A stretch of DNA of 64,000 nucleotides from an uncultured archaeon. GTDB taxonomy: Archaea; Aenigmatarchaeota; Aenigmatarchaeia; QMZP01; JAFGSV01. How positions within the stretch are numbered: the first letter of the stretch is position 1; every line of letters starts with the position of its first letter. A program made the position numbers and the translations under genes. Of the stretch, positions 8,194 through 59,690 are shown piece by piece. The notes below the pieces were generated by a model, which was given only the letters and a program-made list of their open reading frames with translations, made no database searches and was not told the origin of the DNA. Location: contig CAZLFZ010000001.1 in the NCBI GenBank assembly GCA_964559215.1, positions 3,985-67,984 on the forward strand, written 5' to 3'.

Positions 8194-9297
8194 TCAGATT
8201 TTCAAAATGCCTAGCTTCAGCAGATAACGAACGGTGCCGAACTTTAGCAACAACTTGAAGTTTTTCTGGACCGCGCTTGCCAGGTCGCACGAAAAAAAGC
8301 AGTGCTTGCAGATATCCCCTTTTTTTATGATGTTTCGGATTTCAGCCGCCTTCTTCGAATACCAGATTTCCCTGATCGCTTTTTCCCTCAAGTTACCGAC
8401 TTTAGGCAGATTGTTGCAGAAATAAACATCGGCATAGGGGTTTATCGAGAACGTCCCTGATCCGGCATCGCATGGCAAAAACCTTTTTTTCTTCTCTATT
8501 TGCTTATGAGTGTAGTAATCAATGAAATGGTTCCTGGTGAAAAGTCCCTTTACCTGCTCATCGGTCAGCCCGAGATGCCTCTTGTCTATGTTCTTGTAAA
8601 AGGGATCCTGGAAAGAAGCCACGGTCAAGGAGCTGGGGAGGCCATTCGCATTGCAGAAGCGCTGAAGTTCTTGCATGTGATTGATGTTCATCTGCGAAAC
8701 CACGCACTGCGTGGTTAGCAGCAGGTTATCATGCTGCTTTTCCAGTTTTTTCAGGGCAAAAATCGTTTTGCTCGTTTTTTTGAAGGCGCCTCTCACACCC
8801 CTGATCCTGTCGTGGGTCTCACCCACTCCGTCCAGGCTCACGGAGATGCCCACATTCAATCTTAGACTTGGAACGACCTCCTTGACAAAGCCTGTTATTT
8901 TCTTTGTCAGGAAACCGTTTGTGGATATGTCTATTTCTTGGAGGTTTTTGCATTTGTCCTGCCACAGGAGAATTAAATCAATCAGGTCTTTCCTCAAGAA
9001 AGGCTCCCCGCCCGTGACATTCATGGTGCTCAAGGAAGACCAGAACGGCTTGTCGCTCAGCATATCCTCGTACTCGTCCAGCGTGATTGTCTTTGTCGAA
9101 TCCTGCAGCCTGCTGATATTGCACATCACGCAGTTGCCATTGCATCGCCAGGTGACTATGTTGACCAGATGCCTGGGCTTGGTAGCCTTGGATTTATCGA
9201 ACAGGCTTTGAGCGCTGTACCTCAGGCTGCCTAAGACGAAATTTATTTTTCTGGTATAAGATAATTTATCAATGCCCGTTGTCTCTTTTTCGCTCAT
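8194..9297 (-). CDS. Radical SAM protein with C-terminal SPASM/twitch-like Cys cluster
   Basis: 367 aa. 'CNGNCVMCN' CxxxCxxC near the N-terminus. C-terminal 'CDAGS...C...CKHCFFSC' auxiliary cluster cysteines. Confidence 0.65.
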   Translation of the reverse strand: MSEKETTGIDKLSYTRKINFVLGSLRYSAQSLFDKSKATKPRHLVNIVTWRCNGNCVMCNISRLQDSTKTITLDEYEDMLSDKPFWSSLSTMNVTGGEPFLRKDLIDLILLWQDKCKNLQEIDISTNGFLTKKITGFVKEVVPSLRLNVGISVSLDGVGETHDRIRGVRGAFKKTSKTIFALKKLEKQHDNLLLTTQCVVSQMNINHMQELQRFCNANGLPSSLTVASFQDPFYKNIDKRHLGLTDEQVKGLFTRNHFIDYYTHKQIEKKKRFLPCDAGSGTFSINPYADVYFCNNLPKVGNLREKAIREIWYSKKAAEIRNIIKKGDICKHCFFSCDLASAVQKNFKLLLKFGTVRYLLKLGILKI

Positions 9298-11395: not shown

Positions 11396-13192
11396 TTAAT
11401 GAACCGAGTTGCATGGTGTTCTGTAGATTTTTACCACAGGCGCGCCGTCAGCGAGCACGGAATGGACGGGGGAGCTCAAGTCCATGCATTCTCTTGTAAG
11501 TTCGTTTATATGGGCCTCGCTCTCGAAAAGGCCGCTCCTTGACATGAGCACGATGTAGTCCGCATCTTGCATCGTTTCCGGTCTCTCGATGACATCGTAA
11601 TAACTGACTATTTCAATATCGTCCCTCAGCAACGCATCCTGCTCAAAACTGAACTGGCCGAGCCCAACTGATGTGACATTGAATCTCGTTTTTATCTGCC
11701 CGATATCTCCGTATTTGTACGTGTTGAATATGTTGTGGGCCATAGGGATGTAAATCTTGGCATTCTCGACAGCGTTCTCGTTCAGCCAGCCAACTACCTC
11801 CAGATAAGGCTCTCCGGACCACACAGTCTCGTACAAGCCCGAATTGTAAACACCACCCGTACCTCCAACCATGAGATTGAAGTACGTATCAGTGTGCCCC
11901 TTCCAGATTGCAGCGAATCCAGGTGCTATCAGCAGCCCCGCAACCATGATTGTGAGGATGTTCTGCTTCTTCCTTAAAAGGACGGGGATTTTTGCAGAAT
12001 TAAGCAGGGAGTCCGCACCTATGCCGGACAGAATGCCAATGAACAGGAACGACTGCATGAACTGCTGGACGCCGTTGTATGCCACCTGAGAAACGCTCAA
12101 AATCAACAAGGGGGTCAGGGCGCTCAAAAGGAACAGCATGGATGTCCTGTTTTTGTTCGTCTTTGTATCTTTTATGGCAATGTAGCTGCCTAGGCAGGCG
12201 AATAGCAGTATCGGCACCGGCAAGGTAGCGGCTGCTAGGGAAAATATGTACAAAAACGATGGATGGGTAACCACGGTGCCAAGGAAATAAACGGGAACGG
12301 CACCCGTACTTATTGTACTCAGGTAATATGACTTCCACCAAACGAACCTGCTTATCGTATTGTGCCACAGCCAAGGCCATGACATAACCCATACGATGGG
12401 CGTGACAATTATCAGCGAAAGAACTGTGACCATTATCTTCGGGGGTTTCAGGCTTGCCATCCGATGTACGTTATCCAACACCTTGTCCCGGTAGCTGACC
12501 AGCAACCACACGATTATAATCACTGGGATGAAGACCGCCTGAGCCTTGGTCGCCAGGGCTAAACCCAGCATGACCCCTGAAAGCAGGCCATATTTCCAGT
12601 TTTTCATCCCAAGCCAAAAGAACCACAACGTCAGCACCCAAAATATTGCTACAGGCTCGTCCATCAGGACGTATTTGGAATGTGCGAAAAACCTTGGAAT
12701 GAAGATTATAGAGAGAACCGAGAACAGGGCTGCCCTTCTGCTATGCGTCCCCCTTACAAAAAGATACACTGCAGCAAGGCCTATCGCAGTTAAAAGTATT
12801 ATCGCAATGCGATGGGCCATTATGGAAGAAATAACATTGAGGCTGCCGCCGTTGAGGAACCAGATCCCAGCCCAGGTGATGCCGGACATCGTTATAGACA
12901 GCTTCGGTCTTCCCTCCCAGCACCTGCTTGCCCATTCGGCATTGATTTCATTGACATCCCTGGCGAGTTCGAAGTCAAGCGTCAGGTCGCAGAAGAACAA
13001 GTCTGGTTTGCCCGTGGCCATCGAGTAAAGGGAATACGCCCTGGCCTTTGCCTGCGCTATGTATCTGTTCTCATCGATTGTAATCCCCGTTGCCGGCAGG
13101 CTCCATAATGCGCCAACCAGATACACGGATAACAGGAACGATATCGCCAGCAAATCCGCTTTCGGATCCTTTAGGTGATTCTCCAAAATCAT
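11396..13192 (-). CDS. Polytopic membrane protein, GT-C-fold glycosyltransferase candidate (ArnT/PMT-like)
   Basis: 598 aa with about 11 predicted hydrophobic helices in the first 430 aa, then a roughly 170-aa soluble C-terminal domain. Acidic 'DE' in an early loop. No WWDYG motif, so it is not a canonical AglB. Confidence 0.4.
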   Translation of the reverse strand: MILENHLKDPKADLLAISFLLSVYLVGALWSLPATGITIDENRYIAQAKARAYSLYSMATGKPDLFFCDLTLDFELARDVNEINAEWASRCWEGRPKLSITMSGITWAGIWFLNGGSLNVISSIMAHRIAIILLTAIGLAAVYLFVRGTHSRRAALFSVLSIIFIPRFFAHSKYVLMDEPVAIFWVLTLWFFWLGMKNWKYGLLSGVMLGLALATKAQAVFIPVIIIVWLLVSYRDKVLDNVHRMASLKPPKIMVTVLSLIIVTPIVWVMSWPWLWHNTISRFVWWKSYYLSTISTGAVPVYFLGTVVTHPSFLYIFSLAAATLPVPILLFACLGSYIAIKDTKTNKNRTSMLFLLSALTPLLILSVSQVAYNGVQQFMQSFLFIGILSGIGADSLLNSAKIPVLLRKKQNILTIMVAGLLIAPGFAAIWKGHTDTYFNLMVGGTGGVYNSGLYETVWSGEPYLEVVGWLNENAVENAKIYIPMAHNIFNTYKYGDIGQIKTRFNVTSVGLGQFSFEQDALLRDDIEIVSYYDVIERPETMQDADYIVLMSRSGLFESEAHINELTRECMDLSSPVHSVLADGAPVVKIYRTPCNSVH

Positions 13193-13294
13193 CCGGCATC
13201 ACTTTATAATGACATTTGATATTGTTAATAATTAAATATTCTATCTATCTATGTTAAAACAAAATAAAACAAGAGGTCGGTCGTCTTGAAAGTA

Positions 13295-14752
13295 ATGATA
13301 ACATACCCTCCCATCGAATCTGAAAAGGGATTCCCCCTGCTGTCCCAGAACAGGCAGTTCCAGTGGTTCAACAATCCCACCTTGCTGTTCCCGGTAATTC
13401 CGGCGTCTGCAGCGACATTGCTTGACAGCAAGGGCTACGATGTCGTGTGGCTCGATGCCATCGCCGAGGGTTTGCCTTATGATGAGTATGTGGAATTTTT
13501 CAGGAGGGAGAGTCCTGACCTGGTCGCAATCGAAACCAAAACCCCCGTGATCAGGCGTCATTGGATAATAATCAACGAACTGAAAAAAATCTCACCGAAG
13601 ACGCGTTTTGTGCTGATGGGCGACCATGCAACCGCTTTGCCAAAAGAGTCGTTGGAGGAATGCGCTGGGCTCGATTTTGTGATTACGGGAGGGGACTACG
13701 ATTTTTTCCTGCTGGACCTGTGCGACTATCTGTCAAAAAAATCCAAAAAACCGCCTCATGGCCTGTGGTATCGCAAAGGCGATGCTATAAAGAACACGGG
13801 CCGGTTCCAGCTCAGCCACAACCTGGACGATCTGCCTTTCATAGACAGGGAGCTGACAAAAGGCAGCTTGTATAACGTGGAATACAACATCAAGGCGAGG
13901 CCCTTCGCCTACACGATGGCGGGCAGGGACTGCCCCTATCACAAATGCAAATTCTGCGCGTGGCCCATACTATTTCCGACGTTCAGGACGAGGAGCCCGG
14001 ACAATGTCTTGGACGAGATAGGCATGCTCATCGAGCGCTACGGGGTCAAAGAGGTCTTTGACGATACAGGGACCTTCCCACCGGGGGCATGGCTGAACAA
14101 GTTCTGCAAGGGTATGATAGATCGTGGTTACAACAAGCGGATAAGATTCTCGTGTAACATGAGGGTGGATTACATAAACGGGGAAAACGCGAGGATGATG
14201 AGGGAGGCGGGATTCAGGCTGCTTAAGGTGGGCCTTGAATCGGCCAACCAGACGACTCTTGACAGAATCAACAAGGGTATAAAGGTTGAGCAGATAACGC
14301 AAGCCTGCAAGATAGCGAAAAGGGTGGGCCTTGAGATTCACCTCACGATGATTGTGGGATATCCTTGGGAAACGAAAGGGGAAACAATGGAAACAATGGA
14401 GCTTGCAAAGGAGTTGATGACTAGCGGAAAGGCTGACGTCCTGCAGTCGACTGTCTTGGTTCCATATCCCGGGACGCCCTTGTGGAAAGAGGGGCTCAAA
14501 GAGGGATGGTTCAGATTCGACCCAGCGTCCTACGAGCGCTACGACATGTCGGAGCCTGTCTTCAAAACCCCCGACATGTCCTCGGGGGATGTTATGGAAA
14601 TGTGCAATTCAATCTACAGGAGTTTCGTTACCCCAGGATACATCATGAGGCGTTTGGTTGAAATAAGGTCCTGGAATGACATAAAGTATCTCCTGAGAGG
14701 TTTCAAGGCCGTGTTGGGTCACATGAAGGATTTTTCAAGAAAAGCTGGGTGA
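13295..14752 (+). CDS. B12-binding radical SAM enzyme (class B radical SAM)
   Basis: An N-terminal Rossmann-like cobalamin-binding domain followed by 'AGRDCPYHKCKFCAW' CxxxCxxC. ATG at 13295 chosen inside the TTG-initiated ORF. Confidence 0.7.
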   Translation: MITYPPIESEKGFPLLSQNRQFQWFNNPTLLFPVIPASAATLLDSKGYDVVWLDAIAEGLPYDEYVEFFRRESPDLVAIETKTPVIRRHWIIINELKKISPKTRFVLMGDHATALPKESLEECAGLDFVITGGDYDFFLLDLCDYLSKKSKKPPHGLWYRKGDAIKNTGRFQLSHNLDDLPFIDRELTKGSLYNVEYNIKARPFAYTMAGRDCPYHKCKFCAWPILFPTFRTRSPDNVLDEIGMLIERYGVKEVFDDTGTFPPGAWLNKFCKGMIDRGYNKRIRFSCNMRVDYINGENARMMREAGFRLLKVGLESANQTTLDRINKGIKVEQITQACKIAKRVGLEIHLTMIVGYPWETKGETMETMELAKELMTSGKADVLQSTVLVPYPGTPLWKEGLKEGWFRFDPASYERYDMSEPVFKTPDMSSGDVMEMCNSIYRSFVTPGYIMRRLVEIRSWNDIKYLLRGFKAVLGHMKDFSRKAG

Positions 14753-14756
14753 AGAT

Positions 14757-16049
14757 ATGGGGAAATACACAGCATACCCAGAAAAATTTGACAGGCAGCT
14801 TGATAAAGTGTTCGAAAAGGTAATCAAAGCCATCAGACAAGAAACAGATCCCGTTTCCATAATCTTGTTCGGTGGTTTTGGAAAGGGCGAGGGGAGCGCA
14901 GAAATAAAAAACGGGAAAATAATAGCGATGAACGACTTTGATTTATACGTCATCACCAAAGAAAAGGTCCCTGCATCTTTCTCGGATTATCTCACGGAAA
15001 AGTCATCAAAGGCCATAGGTGTTGGCGGCCTCGATTTCGTAGAGCACCCTGGCGAAAAGTACGACCCGCTCAAATTCTTCCATGTCGATGTTAGATGCAT
15101 AAGTTTTGACGAGTTGTCACGTCTCAGGAAAACGCAGAGAACCTTCGAGCTCAAGTACAGCAGCCAGGTGATCTGGGGTGACGAGAACGTTTTGGATAGG
15201 ATAAAGGATATAGGTGCCAACGAACTGCCGGTTCCCGAAGGAATCAGGCCTATGTTCAACAAGTTTGATACCCTTCTTCTTTGCATGGATGAAAAGAAAC
15301 TAAAAGGCGAGCTGGATGAAAATGAAAAGCGGATTATCGTTTTCTATTCCATGAAGGCGTTCATCACATGCGCCGAGGCCCTCCTCGTATTTAGCGGGAA
15401 TTTCAAGCCGACTTACTCGGAGAGATCAAGGGAACTGAAAAGGATATTTCACAAGGAGTTTCCAAGACTTAGGAAAAAAATCCCGGACCTGCCAAAAAAG
15501 GTTGAGTTGGCTACCAATTTCAAGCTGAAGCCAAACTTCAACATACCGGATTCTGTAAGGCTGTGGTTTGAAGCGAGGGATTGCCTGGGAACGGTGTTCA
15601 GGTATGTGATATCCGAATATCTTTCTCTCGAGTCTGACGATTGGCAAACCGTTGCGGACTCCTTTTATTCCGGAATGCCATTCAAATATTTCGAGCCTTA
15701 CATAGGCGAAATGCTTGAAAGAGTACACTTGCCGAAAATCCTGTCAAAGGTCTTGCTTCCTAGTCAGTACTTCCTGAACATACTGTATGCAAAGAAGCTG
15801 AAGGGGGCTGGAGAGTTCACGGTGAAGCCCCTACTGAGCTGGAAGGATGTGGGCCTCAAACTACCGGTTCCTCTTTTCCTGTTTCTGTTCTCGATAAAAA
15901 GGAATGGCAAATGCGATGCTAAATTGCTTGAGCTGAGCAAAAAATACCTGAATAAAATAAAAACAGTGAGAGCCGATATCGGATGGGAGGATTTGAGGAA
16001 AGAGATACTCTGTCTGTATGGGTTATATTATTTGCAAAAACTAATATGA
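14757..16049 (+). CDS. Pol-beta-superfamily nucleotidyltransferase-domain protein (430 aa), function unknown
   Basis: 'ILFGGFGKGEGS...NDFDLYVIT' matches the hG[GS]x9-13DhD NTase signature. A long helical C-terminal region follows. Confidence 0.35.
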   Translation: MGKYTAYPEKFDRQLDKVFEKVIKAIRQETDPVSIILFGGFGKGEGSAEIKNGKIIAMNDFDLYVITKEKVPASFSDYLTEKSSKAIGVGGLDFVEHPGEKYDPLKFFHVDVRCISFDELSRLRKTQRTFELKYSSQVIWGDENVLDRIKDIGANELPVPEGIRPMFNKFDTLLLCMDEKKLKGELDENEKRIIVFYSMKAFITCAEALLVFSGNFKPTYSERSRELKRIFHKEFPRLRKKIPDLPKKVELATNFKLKPNFNIPDSVRLWFEARDCLGTVFRYVISEYLSLESDDWQTVADSFYSGMPFKYFEPYIGEMLERVHLPKILSKVLLPSQYFLNILYAKKLKGAGEFTVKPLLSWKDVGLKLPVPLFLFLFSIKRNGKCDAKLLELSKKYLNKIKTVRADIGWEDLRKEILCLYGLYYLQKLI

Positions 16050-16133
16050 TAATACAAGCCGGCGAATACGTACATGGCAACGAGCAGACTGGCCGTTGCA
16101 TTGTAAGCTCTGGACGCCGGCAGGTGTGTATAT

Positions 16134-17282
16134 ATGTTATGCATATGCATAGACGCTTTCAAGCCCGATTATCTCAGATGCACCAAATATCTCAAATCCA
16201 TTGCCAAAGAATCCATGCATGGCGAACTGGAAAGCATCCTGGGATTCAGCGGCATAACAGCGACATTTCTGACCGGGACGTTCCCCAAAAAGCACGGGAT
16301 TGTGTCGATGTTCGATTATTCGCCAAGGTCATCAGTGGGGTGGGTCGGCAAGTACTCATTCCTTGGACGGACCATGCTCAATATAGCGATAAACCTGAAC
16401 AGGTACCTGAGGGATCAGAGATTCTTTTTCAAAATCCCTAAAATGCCGATCAAGTGGATGAAGTATTTCGACACGTGCTTGAACAAGGCGTTCCCCCAAG
16501 CTGGCTCTCTCAGGGTGAAGAGCCTTTACGATATCCTGAGGGAGAACGATAAGACATTCTGCGCCGTGGACTGGCCCAACGTAATACATTCCAAAGGCAG
16601 GTCTGTATTCATGTCCCATTCCAAGGAAAAAATCCTAAGCATAACCGAAAAGATGCTCAGAAAGGATCCAGACTTCTGTTTCACACATTTCTTCGAGCTG
16701 GATTATGTAGCGCATGAGTTCGGGACAACGTCAAAAGAACTCAAGGATGAGGTCAGGATGCTGGACGAGACCATAGAGAAGCTCGACACGGATGACTTGT
16801 TCGTCTTTTCCGACCATGGCATGATTGACGTCAAGGGGGGAGTCGATATCGCCCCTCTCATAGAAGACACAGGACTGGAGTTCGGCAAGGACTTCGCATA
16901 CTTCCTTGATTCGACGATGGCCCGCTTCTGGTTTAGGAAAGGGGATGCAGGCAAGGAGATCGAAGAAAAGCTGCTCGACATCAAGGGCGGTCACGTGCTA
17001 ACCCAGCAACAAATCGGCATGGTGTATAAACTCCCGCTTGATTGCTGCGATATGATATTCCTTGCAGACCCTGGCATCGTGATTAAAAGCAACTTCTTCC
17101 AAGGAGATGAACCGGTCAAGGCTATGCATGGATATGACCCCCGCCAGCCAGACCAGTTCGCGTTCTATCTGCTGAAAACGGGCGGTGAGAAAAAAAGCGC
17201 GAGAATGGTCGATATGCTGCCCACCCTGCTGGATTTCATGAACCTTCCTGGCATCAAGTGCGATGGAAAATCACTTCTTTGA
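16134..17282 (+). CDS. Alkaline-phosphatase-superfamily enzyme (type I phosphodiesterase / nucleotide pyrophosphatase-like)
   Basis: Starts 'MLCICIDAFKPDYL' (metal-ligand Asp box typical of the NPP/AP family). 'FVFSDHGM' His box later. Confidence 0.5.
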   Translation: MLCICIDAFKPDYLRCTKYLKSIAKESMHGELESILGFSGITATFLTGTFPKKHGIVSMFDYSPRSSVGWVGKYSFLGRTMLNIAINLNRYLRDQRFFFKIPKMPIKWMKYFDTCLNKAFPQAGSLRVKSLYDILRENDKTFCAVDWPNVIHSKGRSVFMSHSKEKILSITEKMLRKDPDFCFTHFFELDYVAHEFGTTSKELKDEVRMLDETIEKLDTDDLFVFSDHGMIDVKGGVDIAPLIEDTGLEFGKDFAYFLDSTMARFWFRKGDAGKEIEEKLLDIKGGHVLTQQQIGMVYKLPLDCCDMIFLADPGIVIKSNFFQGDEPVKAMHGYDPRQPDQFAFYLLKTGGEKKSARMVDMLPTLLDFMNLPGIKCDGKSLL

Positions 17283-18251
17283 TCCTTTATTCCTGGCAAT
17301 CAGCCCGCAAAGGAAACCAACGCCGTATGATATATGCGTAAGTATTATGCCAGGGAAGACCAGCCAGAACCTTTTCGGGCTCTTCAGCAAGCTCGCAGCA
17401 GCGACAACCACGACATAAAGAAGCACGGCGCCTGTGTAAAGGTTTCTGATTAAGGGGATTTGCAGCCACGGATTGAAAGACAACATGAAGCCCGATACCA
17501 GCGCCAGCACGAATATGGATGGGAGGAAGTAAAAAATCTTGTCTTTTGAGAAGAAGCTTTTGACAATGTGGGCCTTGTCCCTTCCGTACACCCATATCTG
17601 TTGCAGGTGCGGCCTGAAGAGGGGCCTTCTGTGATGGTACACTATGACGCCGGGGTCGTATACTATCTTCTTGCCGAGCTTTCTGGCTTCAAAGCATAGC
17701 TTGGCGTCTTCTGCCGTGAGCAATGAAGCGTCGAAACCGCCTATCCTGTTGAAGAGTTTCCTTTTCACGAGCAGATTGCATGAAGGCAGTTCGTTCACTT
17801 CCCTGTAACTCGTCATGGAATACCTGGCAGCGAAATGCCCGGCGGCTATCCTTGAGGAAAGAACGTCGTCACTCGCTTTCTGCAACATGCCATCATCCGG
17901 GGGCAAGAGGTTTGGCCCGCCTGTCACTTCGGCTCCCCGCTTCTCCATAACTTCCAATGCATTCCTTAGCCAGCTCTTCTCAGGATACGCATCTGAGTCT
18001 ATGAACGCAAGCACATCGGCACTGGTTTTCTTGGCAGCGGCATTCCTCTTGATGGAAGGCAAGACAGGACCCGTAGGCATTATCTTTGTCTTGGGAAACC
18101 TGTCATTTGAACCGGAATCCGGCAACAGTATTATGTCGAAATTGTCATAATCTAGTTTAAGGCATTCTCTCATGCACTGCTTTGTGTATGCGTCTATCTC
18201 CCTGCAAGGGATTATTATCGACACTTTTGGGGGAGTTTTCATATTTTTCAT
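17271..18251 (-). CDS. Glycosyltransferase family 2 with C-terminal TM helices
   Basis: 'VSIIIPCREID...LAFIDSDAYP' DXD. C-terminal hydrophobic segments. Confidence 0.65.
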   Translation of the reverse strand: MKNMKTPPKVSIIIPCREIDAYTKQCMRECLKLDYDNFDIILLPDSGSNDRFPKTKIMPTGPVLPSIKRNAAAKKTSADVLAFIDSDAYPEKSWLRNALEVMEKRGAEVTGGPNLLPPDDGMLQKASDDVLSSRIAAGHFAARYSMTSYREVNELPSCNLLVKRKLFNRIGGFDASLLTAEDAKLCFEARKLGKKIVYDPGVIVYHHRRPLFRPHLQQIWVYGRDKAHIVKSFFSKDKIFYFLPSIFVLALVSGFMLSFNPWLQIPLIRNLYTGAVLLYVVVVAAASLLKSPKRFWLVFPGIILTHISYGVGFLCGLIARNKGSKK

Positions 18252-18255
18252 ATGA

Positions 18256-18945
18256 TCAACTATTTTTCCTCATCTCAAAGATCAGGCTGACGCCGAAGGG
18301 GGCCCTTATGTTTTTTTCTATCTTGTATGCCAATCCTATCAGTGGGGTGAGTCTATTGATTTTCTTGGATCTCCCCCTATACGTCTTTGTCTGGTTAAGG
18401 AAAATATTGGAGAAGAGGAAGGGTGGGAACATCAGGCTGTTCGCATATCTGCATCTCTTCACAACAAATCCGTGGCGTTTTGCAAACTTTATGAACTTGT
18501 TCCTGTCATATCTCCTATAATGGCCCATATGCCTGTCGTGGGTGCCGTAAATGGAGCTATGTGCAGGGACCGTTATTATCGCCTTGCCATCTTTCTTCAA
18601 GAGGCTGCGAATCTCGTCCAGCACTAACCCGTCCTCGCGTACATGCTCCAGCATGTCCCCGCACACGACATAATCAAAAGAACCTTTCCTGAATGGCAGG
18701 TGCCGCGCATCGACAAGGAGTCGTTTTCCCCAAAGCTTCGCTATGTTACCCTTTTCCATGTCAGAAAAAATGACCTCATTATCACCGCTCAGCGAAGATC
18801 CTATGTATCCCGGGCCGCAGCCAAGGTCGAGTATCCTGTTTCCTTTGCCTTTCACCATTTCCATTATTATTCTCAGCCTCACGTTTACCCATATGTCGCT
18901 GCCCAACCTCCCATGCACAATTTTGATGTCGGTCATTGTCACCAA
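18256..18945 (-). CDS. Class I SAM-dependent methyltransferase
   Basis: 'ILDLGCGPGYIG' motif I. 'VVCGDMLEHVRED' post-II region. 229 aa. Confidence 0.6.
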   Translation of the reverse strand: MVTMTDIKIVHGRLGSDIWVNVRLRIIMEMVKGKGNRILDLGCGPGYIGSSLSGDNEVIFSDMEKGNIAKLWGKRLLVDARHLPFRKGSFDYVVCGDMLEHVREDGLVLDEIRSLLKKDGKAIITVPAHSSIYGTHDRHMGHYRRYDRNKFIKFAKRHGFVVKRCRYANSLMFPPFLFSNIFLNQTKTYRGRSKKINRLTPLIGLAYKIEKNIRAPFGVSLIFEMRKNS

Positions 18946-19065: not shown

Positions 19066-20004
19066 TTATCTTTCAGCTGAAAATGCAAAAGCGGCGCCAA
19101 AAACCGCGATTACTACATAGCTTATTGTCACTGCTACCAGACTCATTACTACTACCATCTCCGATCCTACTCCGAAAATTGAAAAGAGAAAGACCAAAGT
19201 CGCCTCCCTTGTTCCCCATCCACCTACTGTTATGGGAATCAGTCCTATCAAAGTTGCAATCGGCAACATCGTGACAAATGCTGTGCAGGGTACGTCTATG
19301 CCCACAGAGATTGCTATCATATACGTTGAAGAATACAAAAACAGCCAACCTACAAGTGTCAAGACAAATGGGGCTATTATTTGCCTGAAATCGATTATGT
19401 TATCGTAGAATGAATTGAACGCATCCTTGGCTCTCGTCTTCATTTTTTTGGGTACAAACAACCTCCAGAATATTCTCGTTATTCCCCTGCTCGTCTTTTT
19501 GCGAACAAATATGAAAAGTACCGAAAAAAGTGCGAGGGAAATAACCGAGACGGCTGCAAACAATTCAAAAGAAAGATAATTTGCCAGTGATATCATCCCT
19601 ATTATTGCAAGTACAAAAAGTGCGGTGAAATCCAGCACTTTGTCTATTATCACGCTTACGCTGCATTCTCCCGTACTTTTTCCTGTTTTGTTTTTCATGT
19701 ACCTAATCCTTATAAAATTTCCAACCCTTCCCGGAGTGACAAGACCATAGAACGCACCTATGATATATATCCTAAAGAGTGTCCAAAAGCCCAGACTAAT
19801 GCCTTGCTTCCTGACGAGGTAACCCCATTTGAAATTCTGAATACAGAGATATGAAAAGAAGAGAAATGCCGCGGGAAGCAGATACCTGATGTCCACTTTC
19901 ATGAATGTTTCCAGTATCACCCCAGGTCCTGTTCTGAGAATCAGGTAAACAAGGATGCAGATGCCTATCAAAGGGAGTATCCTTGTCGCTTTTTTCATGG
20001 ACAT
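19066..20004 (-). CDS. UPF0104 / flippase-like integral membrane protein (LPG-synthase-TM-like)
   Basis: 312 aa with 8+ TM helices. 'TPGRVGNFIR' and 'GGWGTREATLVF' motifs match the 41632-42582 paralog. Confidence 0.5.
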   Translation of the reverse strand: MSMKKATRILPLIGICILVYLILRTGPGVILETFMKVDIRYLLPAAFLFFSYLCIQNFKWGYLVRKQGISLGFWTLFRIYIIGAFYGLVTPGRVGNFIRIRYMKNKTGKSTGECSVSVIIDKVLDFTALFVLAIIGMISLANYLSFELFAAVSVISLALFSVLFIFVRKKTSRGITRIFWRLFVPKKMKTRAKDAFNSFYDNIIDFRQIIAPFVLTLVGWLFLYSSTYMIAISVGIDVPCTAFVTMLPIATLIGLIPITVGGWGTREATLVFLFSIFGVGSEMVVVMSLVAVTISYVVIAVFGAAFAFSAER

Positions 20005-20060: not shown

Positions 20061-20780
20061 CTAATGCTTTTTTATTCTCATCTTTAGAACGGTGAAAAAC
20101 ATGTTAGGTATAGCCCTGCTGATCTTCAGGCTCGACATGGCCTTGTCTTCCCATCTGATAGGCACTTCCTTTATCCTGTAGCCCATCTTCTTTATGACGT
20201 AAAGCATGCACGCATCTATTGCAAAATTCGTCACACTCAGATTCTTTGCCACGGCCTTCACAACATCCCTTCTGAATACCTTGGCAGGGCACTGCGTATC
20301 CTTGTAATGCAGACCGAACAAAAGCCGTATCAGTATGTTGAATCCCCTGCTGGCAATCCTCCTGACAGGCCTCTGCTTCTTCACAACAATGGATCCCTTG
20401 AGCCACCTGGAGCCTATAACGCCGTCATATCTTCCTATCATATTGAGAAGCCTGAGCATCTCTTCGGGAGGCGTCGAGCCGTCGGCGTCCGTATACGCCA
20501 CATACTCTCCACTGGCATAGGCGAATCCACTGAGAAGAGCACCGCCCTTCCCCCCCTTTTCTGGATATACACGATAACGTATGTTTTTGTTTTTCCTTGA
20601 TTTTTCCCTGACTATCTGGGGCGTCCTGTCCGTGCACCCGTCCATGATGACGAGAATCTCGTAACTGTATTTATTTTTGCTGAAAAAATCAGAAAAACTG
20701 TCAAGCGTTTTGCCTATCCTTTTCTCCTCGTTGTATGCCGGAATTATGATGCTAAGTTTTGGTTTCATTTCATTTTCCAT
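20061..20780 (-). CDS. Glycosyltransferase family 2, dolichyl-phosphate hexose synthase (DPM1/AglD-like)
   Basis: 'LSIIIPAYNEEKRIGKTLDS...ILVIMDGCTD...YTDADGSTPPEE'. Start moved to the ATG at 20780. Confidence 0.65.
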   Translation of the reverse strand: MENEMKPKLSIIIPAYNEEKRIGKTLDSFSDFFSKNKYSYEILVIMDGCTDRTPQIVREKSRKNKNIRYRVYPEKGGKGGALLSGFAYASGEYVAYTDADGSTPPEEMLRLLNMIGRYDGVIGSRWLKGSIVVKKQRPVRRIASRGFNILIRLLFGLHYKDTQCPAKVFRRDVVKAVAKNLSVTNFAIDACMLYVIKKMGYRIKEVPIRWEDKAMSSLKISRAIPNMFFTVLKMRIKKH

Positions 20781-20836
20781 ATCTTCGATATTGGATGTTA
20801 TACTTAAATTTAATAAATGCAGAAGAGGTAGTAGAA

Positions 20837-21033
20837 TCACGCGTTGTGATGGTTGTTTATAGTCGTGTGATCTTTGTGTTTTTTGTACCAGTCCATAGTC
20901 TTTTTCAACCCTTCTTCAAGGCCAACTTTCGGTGAATAGCCGAGCACTTCTTTGGTTTTATTGATATTCGGCACCCTTTCCTCAATATCCACATAGTCAA
21001 TCTTCTTGACGCACTTCCCATATCATTTTACGG
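20837..21033 (-). pseudogene. 3'-terminal remnant (about 55 codons) of an NAD-dependent epimerase/dehydratase gene
   Basis: Minus-strand translation reads 'KKIDYVDIEERVPNINKTKEVLGYSPKVGLEEGLKKTMDWYKKHK...*'. This parallels the C-terminus of the intact epimerase at 23025-23984 ('KKIDYPDVKTRVPNIDKAREMLGFEAKVSLEEGLKKTIEWYRQNMKE*'). It is bounded upstream by an in-frame stop with no N-terminal part. Confidence 0.6.
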
Positions 21034-21290: not shown

Positions 21291-23024
21291 ATGAAAAAAT
21301 ACAATGTAATCTGGATTGTTGGCGATCGTATCAGAAGCTACAAGACCAGCCCTGATGATGACGCCAGCAGGCTTAAAGTGATAGACACATTAGCCGAGGA
21401 TGCCGTAGAGTTCACAAACGCAATTACAAGCGCACCGAGCACTGTAATTTCTGCGTCAACGATGTTCACCGGCCTGCCAGGTTGCCTCATCAGCCGCCAT
21501 TACAATGATTGGAAATTTGATGAAAGGAGGATAAGTTCCATACAGAACACATTAAAGAAACACGGTTATGAGATATACACCATACATGACGCGAGGGAAT
21601 GCAGAAGGATGATGCAAGACCTTATACACCCTCTCTCTGCCAAGTACTTTCCTAAGGGAATAACCCACGACAACATGTGGACAAGCAAAGACGTCACTGA
21701 TATACTTGAGAATCTGCTTAACAATGCTGAAAAGAAGTCTCCGGCTTTCTACATGCTCTGGTATGACTGCAGAGATGATCCAAGCACCACAGACCATATG
21801 CAGAGGGCACTAGATCTCTTCAAGAAGCATGGATTGTATGAGAATTCTATAATCGTTCTGAACTCAGACCACGGCTATCCGGACGCCTCAACCGGCCTTA
21901 CTGGCGAGACCATGAGGAATTTTACACATGACATGATAATAACCGATGACAACATAAAGGTTCCACTCATACTGAAATACCCCGGCTGCCCTAAGGGCAA
22001 GAAAGTGAAGGGTGCGGTGGGAACCTTGGACATCGCTCCCACCATCTACGACATACTCGGCATACCGGAACAGAACACGAAATTCAAGTACAGGGGGAAG
22101 TCCGTCATGGGCATGATACGCGGGAAGGAAAAATCATCCAGGATGATAAGGACGGACACTAGGCTTAGTCTGGCAAACGGCAGGGCGACATCTCTCAGAT
22201 CGAACAGGTACAAATATGTATATTACTGGGATCAGAGAACCGAAGAACTGTACGACCTTCACAAGGACCCGTATGAGACGAAAGACCTCCTGTCCGGAAA
22301 GGTCTCGGCAAACATCAAGAGGGTCTTGCTTAATTTCAGAAAGATGCTAGAGGGAAGGGAAAGGGAAATCAACAATTTCAATATCTTGGTGCTGGATAAA
22401 AACTTCGTAAATAGCATGAACAAATCCTTTTCAAAAAACAGGCAAAAAAAGGTTTCACGGGTGCTAATAACCACGAAGTTTGCACCAAAGATGATGATGG
22501 AATGTTTCCTGAAGTCCTCGAGAAGGGTCTTCCCAAATGCCAAGATAGATGTCCTGTCAAATGATGCTGATCATAAGGAGTACAAGACTTTAGGGTTCGA
22601 TAACGCTTACTCCATCAAGAAACTTGATGCCAATAAGGTTTCCAAATCACCTGCCAAGAAAAACGTATATGACACAGTGTTCTACCTTACCGAGCAATCG
22701 AGGCTGGCTTTCGTGGACGAAAACATTATACAGATGACCAAGGATCTGAAGACTAGAAAATCTATAATGCTGGATTACAACTTTGAAAGCTACAGCAGGT
22801 TTTTTTCAAAGTGGATTGCTCCCATAAGAAGGTGCATGAACCGTAATGTAAAGTTCTACAAGGAGGAACCAACACTATTTTTCAAGGACATCCTCCTCAT
22901 GATAAGAGGCGGTATAAGCCATAACATCAAAAGGGATAGGCTTGATCCGATAGAAGCCGACAATGTTAAAAAAATAAGAGATAGGAAACTGAAACTGAAA
23001 AACAAATCAAGCCACAAAAACTGA
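21291..23024 (+). CDS. Sulfatase-like alkaline-phosphatase-superfamily protein with degenerate formylglycine motif and ~200-aa Lys-rich C-terminal extension
   Basis: 'LNSDHGYPD' sulfatase His box. The position of the C/S-x-P-x-R box reads 'SAPST' with no Arg. 577 aa. Confidence 0.5.
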   Translation: MKKYNVIWIVGDRIRSYKTSPDDDASRLKVIDTLAEDAVEFTNAITSAPSTVISASTMFTGLPGCLISRHYNDWKFDERRISSIQNTLKKHGYEIYTIHDARECRRMMQDLIHPLSAKYFPKGITHDNMWTSKDVTDILENLLNNAEKKSPAFYMLWYDCRDDPSTTDHMQRALDLFKKHGLYENSIIVLNSDHGYPDASTGLTGETMRNFTHDMIITDDNIKVPLILKYPGCPKGKKVKGAVGTLDIAPTIYDILGIPEQNTKFKYRGKSVMGMIRGKEKSSRMIRTDTRLSLANGRATSLRSNRYKYVYYWDQRTEELYDLHKDPYETKDLLSGKVSANIKRVLLNFRKMLEGREREINNFNILVLDKNFVNSMNKSFSKNRQKKVSRVLITTKFAPKMMMECFLKSSRRVFPNAKIDVLSNDADHKEYKTLGFDNAYSIKKLDANKVSKSPAKKNVYDTVFYLTEQSRLAFVDENIIQMTKDLKTRKSIMLDYNFESYSRFFSKWIAPIRRCMNRNVKFYKEEPTLFFKDILLMIRGGISHNIKRDRLDPIEADNVKKIRDRKLKLKNKSSHKN

Positions 23025-23984: not shown

Positions 23985-24127
23985 ACACATATTATTGCAC
24001 ACCTTTTTATATACTTGAGCCAGATTTCATTTGGTTTTGTATGCAGATTCCTTGTTTGAAGCCAAAAGATGTAAGAATAAGGGAAAAAGATAAAAAAACA
24101 CTTTATCTAAACTTTTGTAGTGAAACT

Positions 24128-25351
24128 ATGAAAGTCACACTTATCGGCCCCCCTAGCCCGTATTTGGATAACGATGCCGCGTGCCCGCCGTCCGGTCTCA
24201 TGTACTTAGCAGCAGCTTTAGAAAATATTGGCCATGAAGTGGAAATCCTAGACCTCAGCGGCGGATCAGACTGGAGGAGTAAAGCCCCAAGACTTGAGGC
24301 TGATCTTTTTGGGATAACATGCGTCACACCAAACTTCAACGTAGTCCGAGAGTTGTCCAATCTTCTCCCAGAAGATAGGCCGATAATAATCGGTGGCGTG
24401 CACCCAACACATTTGCCGGAAGATGTCCTTCAGAAGATTCGTTGCGACTCCGTCGTGAGAGGAGAAGGGGAAGTGATAATCAAAAAAGTGATTGAGGACT
24501 TGGAAAGGGGGAAATTGCAGAGGATTTATGAGGGTGGTTTAGTTCCGGTTGAAGATATCCCGAAGCCGGCAAGGCACCTTGTTGACCTCCATAAATACAG
24601 GCCCGGGGGCGAAAAGACAACCCCGGTCTACACTTCAAGAGGATGCCCGTTTAACTGCAATTTTTGCTCAAGGATCACCGGGAGGACCTTCAGGGCCATT
24701 CCCATTCCGCGAGTTTTAGAGGAGATAAAGGAAGTGATGTCACTGGGTTTCAAGCACGTGTATTTCGGTGATGATAACATTGTAATCCAACGCGAAAGGA
24801 TGAAGGAGCTGCTGAAAGCCATCAAGCCCTTGGGTATAGAGTTCAGGCTGAACCATGATGCAAGAACTATAGATGAGGAGATAATCGCTTTGGCCGCTGA
24901 TGCGGGCTGTGATGAGATAAGCTTTGGCATCGAGTCGGGAAGCCAGAGGATGCTCGACCTGATGAACAAATGCACGACTGTTGAGGAAAACAAAAAGGCG
25001 ATGCTGCTAACAAAAAAACACGGAATAAAATCAAAGGCTTACATCGTGGTGAACTTCCCGGGAGAGACCGAGGAGACGGTCAAGGAGACCATAAAGTTCA
25101 TATCTGAGGCAAGACCGGACAAGTGGCTGCTGTCATCCTTTGCCCCTCTGCCAGGCTCCAATACTTTCCACCACCCAGAGAAATACGGAATCACTTGGAT
25201 GAGTAAAAACTGGGAAGACTACTATCTTGCTGGAAAGGATGGGAAATTCAAGCCCTGCTTCAAGACCGACGAACTTTCCTTTGAAAGACAGATATACCTT
25301 CATAATCTTCTTATAGAGAGCCTAAGGGAACAGATAGGAAGACAGCATTAA
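24128..25351 (+). CDS. B12-binding radical SAM enzyme (second intact copy)
   Basis: N-terminal B12-binding domain ('MKVTLIGPP...') then 'SRGCPFNCNFCS' CxxxCxxC. ATG at 24128 chosen within the longer ORF. Confidence 0.7.
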   Translation: MKVTLIGPPSPYLDNDAACPPSGLMYLAAALENIGHEVEILDLSGGSDWRSKAPRLEADLFGITCVTPNFNVVRELSNLLPEDRPIIIGGVHPTHLPEDVLQKIRCDSVVRGEGEVIIKKVIEDLERGKLQRIYEGGLVPVEDIPKPARHLVDLHKYRPGGEKTTPVYTSRGCPFNCNFCSRITGRTFRAIPIPRVLEEIKEVMSLGFKHVYFGDDNIVIQRERMKELLKAIKPLGIEFRLNHDARTIDEEIIALAADAGCDEISFGIESGSQRMLDLMNKCTTVEENKKAMLLTKKHGIKSKAYIVVNFPGETEETVKETIKFISEARPDKWLLSSFAPLPGSNTFHHPEKYGITWMSKNWEDYYLAGKDGKFKPCFKTDELSFERQIYLHNLLIESLREQIGRQH

Positions 25352-54173: not shown

Positions 54174-54284
54174 AAATCCCCTTTCATTGCATTGCCCTTC
54201 TAATGCCTATATTATAGGTTATATAAATATATCCTATAAGTTTAAATTTTAACTTGTTAAAGTTAAATTGGATAGTGGTGTGAG

Positions 54285-57928: not shown

Positions 57929-58009
57929 CCATTCCCTTGATATTCCCTCAAGTGAAGGTTTTTATTTGGCGTAATGGTATTTTAATGCAGTTGTTTTTAT
58001 TAAAATATT

Positions 58010-59681: not shown

Positions 59682-59690
59682 TGCCTCGCC

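What the first reader, a model, noticed from the sequence alone, without database searches (positions are those of the whole stretch)
14757..17282. Pol-beta-type nucleotidyltransferase plus alkaline-phosphatase-superfamily phosphodiesterase pair inside the glycan island
A 430-aa protein with the minimal NTase signature (GG...GS...DxD) sits next to a 382-aa AP-superfamily enzyme that starts with the 'CIDAFKPDY' metal box. Together they suggest installation or removal of a phosphodiester-linked substituent on the glycan or its lipid carrier, such as phosphoglycerol, phosphocholine or a nucleotide-activated head group. Neither gene is a standard member of described agl pathways.
Basis: inference. 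Interest (0 to 1): 0.55.

Follow-up and report, generated by a model that had tools for sequence, protein, structure and literature searches.

The report
Conserved nucleotidyltransferase–phosphodiesterase glycan-tailoring gene pair
Two neighbouring genes in an archaeal sugar-coat gene island encode an uncharacterised nucleotide-attaching enzyme and a nucleotide-cleaving enzyme that travel together, usually with a vitamin-B12 radical enzyme, across hundreds of uncultured archaea and bacteria, which points to an undescribed step in building surface sugars or glycolipids.

Summary
Both ORFs are real and sit exactly where stated: 14757-16049 (430 aa) and 16134-17282 (382 aa).

**The 430-aa protein (NT)** founds a large family with no Pfam model, within the Pol-beta nucleotidyltransferase superfamily.
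- The family has 2,499 clusters at 50% identity.
- The GG..GEGS..DxD..D core is invariant.
- Its closest folds are the two-domain small-molecule NTases ANT(9)/AadA, and the match is only weak.

**The 382-aa protein (AP)** is a cytoplasmic NPP-type two-metal phosphodiesterase/pyrophosphatase.
- TM is 0.71 to Xanthomonas NPP and ENPP4-7.
- It is not a phosphomutase.

**The pair is conserved.**
- AP lies downstream on the same strand in 34 of 43 species-level loci.
- The gap is 25 nt or less, or the genes overlap, in 24 of those.
- Only one fully flanked locus lacks AP.
- Hosts are DPANN archaea, CPR (WWE3), Chloroflexi and this uncultured archaeon.
- The next most constant neighbour is a class-B (B12) radical SAM enzyme, sometimes placed between the two genes. 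GT2, a flippase-like membrane protein, GT-C and methyltransferases follow.

**Best reading (inferred, about 0.35).** NT transiently attaches a nucleotide to a sugar or lipid-linked intermediate. The radical SAM enzyme modifies that form. AP then removes the nucleotide. This resembles Fom1/Fom3/FomD in fosfomycin biosynthesis.

The toxin-antitoxin and housekeeping-mutase readings are rejected. Function is untested.

The parts
14757..16049 (+). NT: 430-aa Pol-beta-superfamily nucleotidyltransferase of an unannotated family. N-terminal NTase domain (about 1-150) plus a large conserved helical domain (about 160-430).
   Evidence: ORF. Invariant G39, G44, E45, D60, D62, D111, also kept in the distant subfamily. 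34/46 members hit Pfam Polbeta. AF2 pLDDT 94. Foldseek best hits ANT(9) 6xz0 (E=1.5e-4) and AadA, HalB. 2,499 clusters at 50% identity.
16134..17282 (+). AP: 382-aa cytoplasmic NPP-type two-metal phosphodiesterase/pyrophosphatase with no signal peptide. Metal ligands D7, D190, H194, D227, H228, H332; candidate nucleophile S39.
   Evidence: Pfam PF01663, 73 bits, full length. AF2 pLDDT 97. Foldseek Xac NPP 7mw8 E=1.8e-19, TM 0.71, plus ENPP4/5/6/7. Profile hits to ENPP4/7/5. Ligand conservation.
13286..14752 (+). Class-B (B12-binding) radical SAM enzyme, 'type 1' orthogroup. Same strand; its stop lies 4 nt before the NT start. Gene callers use the ATG at 13295.
   Evidence: Pfam B12-binding + Radical_SAM. 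Best NCBIfam hit is HpnJ at 191 bits, far below the 577 cut-off, then BchE. Orthologs at 44-63% identity in cassette loci. B12-rSAM lies within 3 kb of NT in 35/49 loci. Junction sequence.
16050..16133 (+). 84-nt NT-AP spacer with a stable hairpin that ends just 5' of the AP Shine-Dalgarno-like GCAGGTG.
   Evidence: Sequence. RNA fold -34.1 kcal/mol, z=-3.1. Function not tested.
17271..18251 (-). GT2 glycosyltransferase with C-terminal transmembrane helices, architecturally like a polyprenyl-phosphate or lipid glycosyltransferase. Convergent with AP, overlapping it by 12 nt.
   Evidence: Pfam Glyco_tranf_2_3 / Glycos_transf_2. Hydrophobic C-terminus read from the translation. GT2 within 8 kb of NT in 32/49 loci.
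18256..18945 (-). Class-I SAM methyltransferase.
   Evidence: Pfam Methyltransf_11/23/25. MTase within 8 kb of NT in 28/49 loci.
19066..20004 (-). LPG_synthase_TM / flippase-like membrane protein (distantly HpnL- and MprF-flippase-like).
   Evidence: Pfam PF03706 E=1.4e-49; TIGR00374 flippase-like domain. Within 8 kb of NT in 30/49 loci.
20061..20840 (-). Second, soluble-type GT2 glycosyltransferase.
   Evidence: Pfam Glycos_transf_2 E=3e-31.
11396..13192 (-). GT-C glycosyltransferase (PMT_2/ArnT-like), divergent from the rSAM-NT-AP operon across a 93-nt AT-rich region.
   Evidence: Pfam PMT_2 and PMT. A GT-C gene within 8 kb of NT in 25/49 loci. Intergenic sequence.

Best explanation
The two genes are the stable core of a conserved, probably co-transcribed tailoring module, rSAM -> NT -> AP in this window. 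The module works on a sugar, sugar-phosphate or lipid-linked sugar intermediate of surface-glycan or glycolipid synthesis.

Proposed mechanism:
1. NT, a Pol-beta-type enzyme built like the small-molecule O-nucleotidyltransferases ANT(9)/AadA, uses an NTP to attach an NMP to a hydroxyl or phosphate of the intermediate.
2. The nucleotide-tagged intermediate is the form recognised and modified by the adjacent class-B (B12) radical SAM enzyme. The modification would be C-methylation or a rearrangement. Neighbouring methyltransferases may also act at this stage.
3. AP, a cytoplasmic NPP-type two-metal nucleotide phosphodiesterase/pyrophosphatase, removes the NMP, leaving either the free group or a phosphate.
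4. The product then passes to the GT2, flippase-like and GT-C machinery.

This is the same put-on/take-off logic as Fom1 -> Fom3 -> FomD in fosfomycin biosynthesis, carried out by unrelated folds.

Shown: the folds, the intact catalytic residues, the gene linkage and the glycan context.
Inferred: the substrate, which nucleotide is used, the order of steps, and the handle logic itself.
For: Linkage:
- AP is downstream of NT on the same strand in all 34 of the 43 GTDB species loci that contain it. In 24 the gap is 25 nt or less, or the genes overlap. Only one fully flanked locus (L013) lacks it.
- The pairing persists in WWE3/CPR (L050), L053, L054, L056 (order reversed) and L057, at 25-30% identity.
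- NT and AP divergence is correlated: Mantel r=0.79, 0 of 2,000 permutations reach it.

rSAM link:
- A B12-rSAM lies within 3 kb in 35/49 loci and within 8 kb in 40/49, more often than any other neighbour.
- A second rSAM orthogroup sits between NT and AP in L005, L007 and L034. It follows AP directly in many DPANN loci, and follows NT in L056.
- In the window, the rSAM stop is 4 nt from the NT start.

Chemistry:
- The NT catalytic core is invariant.
- The best structural matches are small-molecule NTases ANT(9)/AadA.
- AP matches nucleotide pyrophosphatases/phosphodiesterases at TM 0.71 with all six metal ligands kept.

Precedent:
- Fom3 methylates only the CMP-linked substrate and FomD then hydrolyses the CMP off (PMC8158854).
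- Among the solved sequence relatives of the cassette's type-2 rSAM (the orthogroup that sits beside or between NT and AP in other loci) is OxsB; from my own knowledge, not from that result, OxsB acts on a nucleotide.
Against: - No biochemistry exists for any family member.
- L040, L041 and L057 carry NT-AP with no rSAM within 8 kb. L050 and L053 have only a non-B12 rSAM. The rSAM link is therefore frequent but not obligatory.
- The Ser/Thr nucleophile expected of NPP enzymes is present in the window protein (S39) but replaced by W, Q, K, G or H in many NT-linked partners. So the AP chemistry may not be a simple NPP-type hydrolysis.
- NT and AP have different folds from Fom1-CyTase and FomD, so the analogy is functional only.
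- Glycan islands are rich in rSAM and methyltransferase genes anyway, and I could not measure a background rate.
Confidence: 0.35

Rival explanations
1. Installation of a phosphodiester-linked substituent. NT makes a nucleotide-activated phospho-compound (NDP-X), or nucleotidylylates the glycan. The AP-family enzyme then transfers or trims it, so that a phosphate or phospho-X group stays on the glycan or lipid carrier.
For: The linkage and glycan context are the same as for the best explanation. AP-superfamily enzymes include phospho-group transferases (EptA, LtaS and the PF01663-bearing GPI ethanolamine-phosphate transferases; established knowledge, not tested here). Methyltransferases lie directly next to the pair in L056, L057 and L011-type loci.
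Against: Known AP-type phosphotransferases are membrane proteins that use lipid donors, whereas this protein is soluble and cytoplasmic. A covalent phospho-enzyme transferase would need the Ser/Thr nucleophile, which is not conserved in the family. No gene that would make a head group (kinase, CDP-alcohol enzymes, PEP mutase) was seen among about 47 window ORFs scanned. This reading does not explain the rSAM linkage.
Confidence: 0.25
2. Non-canonical nucleotide-sugar supply. The AP-superfamily protein acts as a phosphomutase (sugar-n-P to sugar-1-P), and NT acts as the sugar-1-phosphate nucleotidyltransferase feeding the cassette's epimerases and GTs.
For: Mutase plus nucleotidyltransferase is the usual gene pair for making NDP-sugars. 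Most DPANN/CPR cassettes shown lack a canonical NTP_transferase gene nearby. Many AP-family members also touch Pfam Metalloenzyme PF01676.
Against: All top-50 Foldseek hits are NPP/ENPP enzymes, none a mutase. PF01676 scores 12.8 bits against a 24.3 cut-off. Pol-beta NTases are not known to make NDP-sugars (established knowledge). The window already encodes three to four canonical NTP_transferase enzymes.
Confidence: 0.1
3. Membrane-lipid head-group remodelling. AP acts like a phospholipase C/D (as ENPP2/6/7 do) on a phospholipid. NT re-activates the lipid phosphate. GT2, deacetylase, the HpnJ-like rSAM and the flippase-like protein then build and flip a new amino-sugar or cyclitol head group.
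For: ENPP6, ENPP7 and autotaxin are among the best structural matches. GT2, polysaccharide deacetylase and LPG_synthase_TM recur in the cassette. LPG_TM proteins hit HpnL and the GlcN-PG flippase model weakly. Both rSAM types score best against HpnJ. A review notes an 'unknown phosphatase' is needed before lipid glycosylation in calditol synthesis.
Against: All Hpn-family scores are far below their cut-offs. The cassette often includes a GPT, GT-C and AglB, which points to polyprenyl-linked glycans. The module occurs in both ether-lipid archaea and ester-lipid bacteria. Nothing indicates lipid binding by NT.
Confidence: 0.1
4. Toxin-antitoxin or anti-phage element. NT is an MNT-type antitoxin or a signalling NTase (Hailong/CBASS-like), and AP degrades the signal.
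For: The N-terminal 130 residues superpose on MntA, and the whole model weakly matches Hailong HalB.
Against: The protein is 430 aa with a conserved C-terminal domain, and no HEPN or effector gene is adjacent. There are no PADLOC hits for NT, AP, LPG_TM or the rSAM. The constant context is glycan genes across 49 loci.
Confidence: 0.03

Closest known systems
Aminoglycoside O-nucleotidyltransferases ANT(9) / AadA (ANT(3'')(9))
   Same: Pol-beta NTase domain followed by a helical substrate-binding domain. These are the best structural matches (E 1e-4 to 1e-3, about 300 aligned columns). They act on hydroxyls of sugar-like small molecules.
   Different: Only 11-13% identity, with TM 0.30-0.35 on the query. 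The window protein is about 170 aa longer, with extra conserved helices. It has no Pfam hit to the AadA C-terminal domain. Its context is glycan genes rather than resistance genes.
Nucleotide pyrophosphatase/phosphodiesterases (Xanthomonas NPP, ENPP4-7; Pfam PF01663)
   Same: Same fold (TM about 0.71), a full-length Pfam match, and all six metal ligands conserved.
   Different: Cytoplasmic, with no signal peptide. The TFPNH nucleophile motif is replaced by G-[FY]-[ST]-G-I, and the Ser/Thr is lost in many family members. Only 16-19% identity.
Fom1 (cytidylyltransferase) / Fom3 (B12-rSAM) / FomD (CMP hydrolase) of fosfomycin biosynthesis
   Same: A three-part logic: a nucleotidyltransferase, a class-B radical SAM enzyme acting on the nucleotide-linked substrate, and a hydrolase that removes the nucleotide (PMC8158854). 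The same three enzyme classes are adjacent here.
   Different: The NTase and the hydrolase have unrelated folds. No PEP mutase or phosphonate genes are present. The context is glycans rather than an antibiotic. The analogy is inferred, not tested.
MNT-HEPN toxin-antitoxin nucleotidyltransferases
   Same: The minimal NTase core superposes over about 130 residues, and the weak Pfam Polbeta/NTP_transf_2 hits are shared.
   Different: MNTs are about 100-140 aa and are paired with a HEPN toxin. This protein is 430 aa, is paired with an NPP-like enzyme, and sits in glycan clusters.
Hopanoid side-chain genes HpnI/J/K/L and lipid glucosaminylation systems (GT2 + deacetylase + flippase)
   Same: The cassette repeatedly combines a membrane GT2, a polysaccharide deacetylase, a B12-rSAM whose best model is HpnJ, and an HpnL/MprF-like membrane protein.
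   Different: All scores are far below the family cut-offs. There are no hopanoid genes. Those systems have no NT or AP component.
LicC/LicD and PntC-type phospho-substituent pathways
   Same: They use nucleotide activation to decorate cell-surface glycans with phospho-groups.
   Different: LicC and PntC have a GT-A-like NTP_transferase fold, and LicD has its own Pfam family. None is hit here. No AP-superfamily partner is known in those pathways (from my own knowledge).

Membership tests
Pol-beta nucleotidyltransferase superfamily | hG[GS] ... DxD motif plus a third carboxylate on the adjacent strand of a minimal alpha/beta NTase fold | tested here: met
   G39/G40, G46-S47, D60, D62 and D111 lie on strands 34-38, 60-67 and 109-116 of the model. 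They are conserved in the distant subfamily. 34/46 members hit Pfam Polbeta.
MNT (minimal NTase) antitoxins of MNT-HEPN systems | Small single-domain protein (about 100-140 aa) encoded next to a HEPN toxin | tested here: not met
   The protein is 430 aa with a conserved 270-aa helical domain. Its neighbours are a rSAM and an NPP-like gene, with no HEPN. No PADLOC hit.
LicC-like / sugar-phosphate nucleotidyltransferases | GT-A-like NTP_transferase fold (Pfam PF00483/PF12804) | tested here: not met
   No such Pfam or NCBIfam hit for the protein or for 46 family members. The fold matches are Pol-beta type.
GlnE/GlnD-like protein adenylyl/uridylyltransferases | GlnE/GlnD-type NTase domain with its characteristic helical domain (Pfam GlnE, GlnD_UR_UTase) | tested here: not met
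   No Pfam hit in any of 46 members. None appears among the top 50 structural matches.
Aminoglycoside nucleotidyltransferases (ANT(9)/AadA) | NTase domain plus the AadA-type C-terminal helical domain, with detectable sequence similarity | tested here: not met
   Only a structural resemblance (TMq 0.30-0.35, 11-13% identity). No PDB sequence hit. No Pfam C-terminal domain hit.
NPP / type I phosphodiesterase family (PF01663) | Pfam model above the gathering score, and the NPP fold | tested here: met
   73.3 bits against a cut-off of 23, covering profile positions 2-342 of 342. Foldseek E=1.8e-19, TM 0.71 to Xac NPP.
NPP / type I phosphodiesterase family (PF01663) | Six conserved ligands of the two-metal site | tested here: met
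   D7, D190, H194, D227, H228 and H332 are conserved in 46 homologs and in all 36 NT-linked partners.
NPP / type I phosphodiesterase family (PF01663) | Invariant Thr/Ser nucleophile | tested here: inconclusive
   The window protein has S39, within one residue of the ENPP4 nucleophile in the profile alignment. The position is W, Q, K, G or H in many NT-linked family members. No coordinates were available to check the geometry.
NPP / type I phosphodiesterase family (PF01663) | Secreted or ecto-enzyme with a signal peptide or membrane anchor | tested here: not met
   The protein starts directly at strand 1 (MLCICID...), with no hydrophobic leader.
Cofactor-independent phosphoglycerate mutase / phosphopentomutase (PF01676) | Metalloenzyme Pfam model above cut-off, with mutases as the closest structures | tested here: not met
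   PF01676 scores 12.8 bits against a 24.3 cut-off. All 50 best structural matches are NPP/ENPP enzymes.
Fom1/Fom3/FomD-type transient nucleotidylylation pathway | NTase, class-B rSAM and nucleotide-removing hydrolase encoded together | tested here: met
   rSAM-NT-AP lie on the same strand with 4-nt and 84-nt gaps. The triad recurs in 35-40 of 49 loci.
Fom1/Fom3/FomD-type transient nucleotidylylation pathway | The rSAM enzyme requires the nucleotide-linked substrate, and the hydrolase releases NMP afterwards | not testable with these tools
   This needs enzyme assays. It is known only for Fom3/FomD (PMC8158854).
Fom1/Fom3/FomD-type transient nucleotidylylation pathway | Homology to Fom1 CyTase or FomD, and a phosphonate (PEP mutase) context | tested here: not met
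   The folds here are Pol-beta and NPP. No PEP mutase was found among about 47 window ORFs scanned.
Hopanoid HpnI/HpnJ/HpnL set | Scores above the NCBIfam equivalog cut-offs | tested here: not met
   HpnJ 191.5 against 577.6; HpnL 53.9 against 195.65; HpnI 20.7 against 310. The DPANN cassette gives similar values.

The most novel reading that the evidence does not exclude
NT, the class-B radical SAM enzyme and AP form a general 'nucleotide-handle' system. In this reading, genome-reduced DPANN archaea and CPR bacteria, along with some free-living archaea, tag a lipid-linked or free sugar with a nucleotide. A B12 radical enzyme can then carry out difficult chemistry on it, either C-methylation or an HpnJ/OxsB-like ring contraction to a carbocyclic pseudo-sugar. 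The tag is then removed and the product is flipped to the cell surface. This would extend the fosfomycin-type transient nucleotidylylation logic from one antibiotic pathway to a widespread class of surface glycans or glycolipids. It would also define two new enzyme families.
Probability: 0.15. Interest if true: 0.8.

Novelty: new variant of a known kind. Interest (0 to 1): 0.55.

Why it matters
The NT family is large: about 2,500 clusters at 50% identity, nearly all from uncultured DPANN, CPR and other lineages. It has no Pfam or NCBIfam model, no solved relative detectable by sequence, and no described function. Even so, it is locked to an NPP-type partner and usually to a B12 radical SAM enzyme inside surface-glycan or glycolipid cassettes.

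Working out its chemistry would fill a recurring gap in the cell-surface biosynthesis of ultra-small symbiotic archaea and bacteria, whose surfaces mediate host attachment. It could also show a second, much more widespread use of transient nucleotidylylation as a substrate handle for cobalamin radical SAM enzymes.

The NPP-like partner matters for a further reason. Its loss of the canonical nucleophile in many members hints at an unusual mechanism within the alkaline-phosphatase superfamily.

Tried and rejected
- Sequence searches of the NT against the PDB, with the single sequence and with a profile, gave only noise: nucleoporin and flavodoxin at E>0.4.
- NCBIfam has no model for the NT.
- The PADLOC defence library gave no hits for NT, AP, LPG_TM or the rSAM.
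- tRNA and Rfam scans of the window found nothing.
- The organism name could not be recovered. Exact-sequence cluster look-ups for the pair and for housekeeping proteins returned no names. A profile search with distant NT members returned no named or cultured source.
- Literature searches for a described NTase + AP/NPP pair in glycan pathways or DPANN found nothing relevant. The archaeal N-glycosylation review mentions no such enzymes.
- Fusion ('Rosetta stone') search: the long NT members carry only low-complexity inserts. The 541-aa AP homolog P0186 carries just the first ~39 NT columns and looks like a degraded or frameshifted copy.
- A ~255-aa unannotated protein upstream of NT in L050 and L053 was tested as a third partner. 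The L053 form recurs only in L040 and L041, and the L050 protein matched nothing else.
- HpnIJKL membership was rejected on scores.
- MNT/HEPN, LicC-like, GlnE-like, iPGM and phosphopentomutase assignments were rejected (see the membership table).
- Model coordinates are not exposed, so active-site geometry, pockets and surface hydrophobicity could not be examined.


Full report
**1. Observation**

- The first protein carries F38-GGFGKGEGS-47 and N59-DFD-62.
- The second begins MLCICIDAFKPDY.
- Both are real genes. Identical proteins occur on several independent metagenomic contigs with the same neighbours.
- Each has many homologs: at least 164 and 1,082 in the word-indexed searches, and 2,499 clusters at 50% identity for the first in an exhaustive profile search.
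- The region from about 5.9 to 50 kb is a glycan island. It holds GT4, GT2 and GT-C enzymes, a Wzx-like flippase, epimerases/dehydratases, a DegT aminotransferase, an acetyltransferase, NDP-sugar pyrophosphorylases, UDP-sugar dehydrogenases, methyltransferases and three radical SAM genes.
- Genes at the right end mark the host as an archaeon outside DPANN: DUF1512, archaeal-type SecDF, thiolase + HMG-CoA synthase, and DUF4443.

**2. The 430-aa protein (NT)**

- As a single sequence it hits only Pfam Polbeta, at E=0.035 and below the cut-off. It has no NCBIfam model and no PDB sequence relative.
- At family level the assignment is solid. Of 46 aligned homologs at about 40% identity, 34 hit Polbeta and 18 hit NTP_transf_2.
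- G39, G44, E45, D60, D62 and D111 are invariant. The GG/GS..GEGS..DxD core is also kept in a subfamily at about 25% identity.
- The AlphaFold model is confident (pLDDT 94). It places these residues on the standard NTase strands and follows them with a large helical domain.
- Against the PDB the best matches are the two-domain small-molecule O-nucleotidyltransferases ANT(9) and AadA, and the Hailong NTase HalB. These score E 1e-4 to 1e-3 with about 300 aligned columns, but TM is only 0.30-0.35 on the query at 11-17% identity. MNT antitoxins match only the first ~130 residues.
- The protein is therefore a new family inside a known superfamily. It is not LicC-like, GlnE-like or a minimal MNT.

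**3. The 382-aa protein (AP)**

- It matches Pfam Phosphodiest (PF01663) over the whole profile, at 73 bits against a cut-off of 23.
- The model has pLDDT 97. It matches Xanthomonas NPP, ENPP4, 5, 6 and 7 and autotaxin at E about 1e-19 to 1e-16 and TM about 0.7. None of the top 50 hits is a phosphomutase.
- The six metal ligands (D7, D190, H194, D227, H228, H332) are conserved in every homolog examined, including the short 277-295-aa DPANN variants.
- It has no signal peptide, so unlike classical NPPs it is cytoplasmic.
- One feature is unexplained. The Thr/Ser nucleophile is invariant in NPP and alkaline phosphatases. In the window protein and its close relatives it is present as S/T39, in the motif G-[FY]-[ST]-G-I. 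In many other NT-linked partners that position is W, Q, K, G or H.

**4. Linkage**

A scan of one genome per GTDB species with the NT alignment found 43 loci. Almost all are DPANN (Pace-, Woese- and Nanoarchaeota). The rest are a Chloroflexi MAG, an unclassified bacterium and an Iainarchaeum.

- In 34 of the 43 loci an AP homolog is present. In every one of these it lies downstream of NT on the same strand.
- In 24 the gap is 25 nt or less, or the genes overlap.
- Eight of the nine loci without AP have less than 4 kb of sequence downstream of NT (three of them under 1.1 kb). Only L013 has full flanks and no AP.
- Further contexts were reached from the AP side or from distant NT members, and all show the same pairing:
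  - a CPR (WWE3) bacterium, L050;
  - L053;
  - L054, where the two genes are divergent;
  - L056, where the order is reversed;
  - L057.
- NT and AP pairwise identities are correlated: Mantel r=0.79, reached by 0 of 2,000 permutations.
- A more distant bacterial AP subfamily (motif GYSSTCDPT) lacks NT. It follows a STAS gene at the head of Wzx/Wzy polysaccharide clusters.

**5. The rest of the cassette**

Counts below are for 49 loci.

| Neighbour | Within 3 kb of NT | Within 8 kb of NT |
|---|---|---|
| B12-binding radical SAM | 35 | 40 |
| GT2 | 20 | 32 |
| LPG_synthase_TM (flippase-like) | 20 | 30 |
| Class-I methyltransferase | 17 | 28 |
| PMT_2-type GT-C | 14 | 25 |
| GPT | 3 | 16 |
| Polysaccharide deacetylase | 7 | 11 |

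AglB and a PterinBD-DUF4346 protein occur in subsets of loci.

There are two B12-rSAM orthogroups.
- Type 1 includes the window gene at 13286-14752. Its stop codon lies 4 nt before the NT start.
- Type 2 sits between NT and AP in L005, L007 and L034. It follows AP directly in many DPANN loci, and follows NT in L056.
- Both types score best against HpnJ and BchE, far below the cut-offs.
- Their closest solved relatives are AprD4, OxsB, TokK and CysS.
- NT-AP can also occur without any nearby rSAM, in L040, L041 and L057. The pair is therefore the stable unit.

In the window, rSAM-NT-AP share a strand. An AT-rich divergent promoter region lies upstream, and a stable hairpin occupies the 84-nt NT-AP spacer.

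**6. Mechanism**

What is shown:
- An intact NTase active site of a type that usually nucleotidylylates hydroxyls.
- An intact two-metal nucleotide-phosphodiesterase-type site.
- Obligate gene pairing.
- A glycan or lipid-linked-sugar context.
- A strong link to class-B radical SAM enzymes.

A writer of NMP esters and an enzyme built to cleave them, in one operon with a B12-rSAM, fits the verified fosfomycin precedent. There Fom1 cytidylylates the substrate, Fom3 (a class-B rSAM) methylates the CMP-linked form, and FomD hydrolyses the CMP off (PMC8158854).

I therefore propose transient nucleotidylylation of a sugar or lipid-linked sugar as a handle for the radical SAM step, followed by removal by AP. 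Confidence is about 0.35. The substrate, the nucleotide and the order of steps are all inferred.

Rivals:
- An unconventional mutase + NDP-sugar synthase pair (0.1).
- Lipid head-group remodelling together with the GT2, deacetylase and flippase-like genes (0.1).
- Toxin-antitoxin or defence (0.03).

The non-conserved nucleophile in AP argues against a covalent phospho-enzyme transferase. It leaves room for hydrolysis by metal-activated water, or for attack by a substrate hydroxyl.

**7. Comparison with the known, and novelty**

- The folds are known.
- The NT family, the NT-AP pairing and the cassette are not described in Pfam, NCBIfam, PADLOC or the PDB, nor in the literature I could search.
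- It works like an ANT-type small-molecule NTase plus an NPP, and possibly like Fom1/Fom3/FomD. It is not a member of those families (see the membership table).
- I rate it a new variant of a known kind, with moderate interest (0.55). It is a well-supported, widespread and completely uncharacterised enzyme pair with a testable mechanistic hypothesis, but there is no functional evidence yet.

Noticed in passing
window 16050-16133: The 84-nt spacer between NT and AP folds into a stable hairpin (GCCGGCG...CGCCGGC; -34.1 kcal/mol, z=-3.1). It ends just before the AP Shine-Dalgarno-like GCAGGTG. It may be an intra-operon regulatory or processing element.
   Followed up: partly
AP family: window 16134-17282, plus L004, L008, L011, L024, L034, L042, L056, L057: The Ser/Thr nucleophile that is invariant in NPP and alkaline phosphatases is replaced by W (short DPANN variants, G-F-W-G-G-M-D/E) or by Q, K, G or H in many NT-linked partners. 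All six metal ligands are kept.
   Followed up: partly
window 21291-23024 (+): A 577-aa sulfatase/SGSH_C-type protein, a second alkaline-phosphatase-superfamily enzyme, lies in the same island four genes from the pair.
   Followed up: no
window 24041-25351 (+), 8194-9297 (-), 41632-42582 (-): The island holds a second B12-binding radical SAM gene that belongs to neither cassette orthogroup (about 30% identity to both). It also holds a rSAM-SPASM gene and a second LPG_synthase_TM flippase-like gene.
   Followed up: partly
window 54-3032 (+): A 992-aa Eco57I / N6-DNA-methylase-type (type IIG-like) restriction-modification protein sits at the left edge of the island.
   Followed up: no
L008:7564-7986 and 10 other DPANN loci: A 140-aa PterinBD-DUF4346 (pterin-binding) protein sits directly upstream of NT, next to a type-2 B12-rSAM. 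This hints at a pterin-linked methyl supply for the cobalamin enzyme.
   Followed up: no
L051:7636-9143, L052:7641-9194: In bacteria, a distinct AP subfamily (motif GYSSTCDPT) has no NT partner. It is preceded by a small STAS-domain gene and opens Wzx/Wzy-type polysaccharide clusters downstream of signalling genes.
   Followed up: no
L055:7001-8626 (protein P0186): A 541-aa AP homolog lies in a high-GC bacterial island that also contains MotA/MotB and CMP-sugar genes. It ends with the first ~39 residues of an NT domain and then unrelated sequence, so it is probably a decayed or frameshifted NT copy.
   Followed up: partly
L027, L008, L054 and other DPANN cassettes: The recurrent trio of membrane GT2, polysaccharide deacetylase and LPG_synthase_TM resembles lipid glucosaminylation systems. 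One LPG_TM protein weakly hits the NCBIfam 'glucosaminyl phosphatidylglycerol flippase' model (39.8 bits, below its 320-bit cut-off).
   Followed up: partly
window 53004-63768: Archaeal housekeeping genes flank the island: DUF1512, SecD/SecF, a geranylgeranyl-reductase-like flavoprotein, DUF4443, thiolase and HMG-CoA synthase. The host is therefore a lipid-synthesising archaeon, not a DPANN. Its NT is nevertheless only 38-45% identical to the DPANN copies and 50% identical to a Chloroflexi copy, which is compatible with horizontal spread of the cassette.
   Followed up: no
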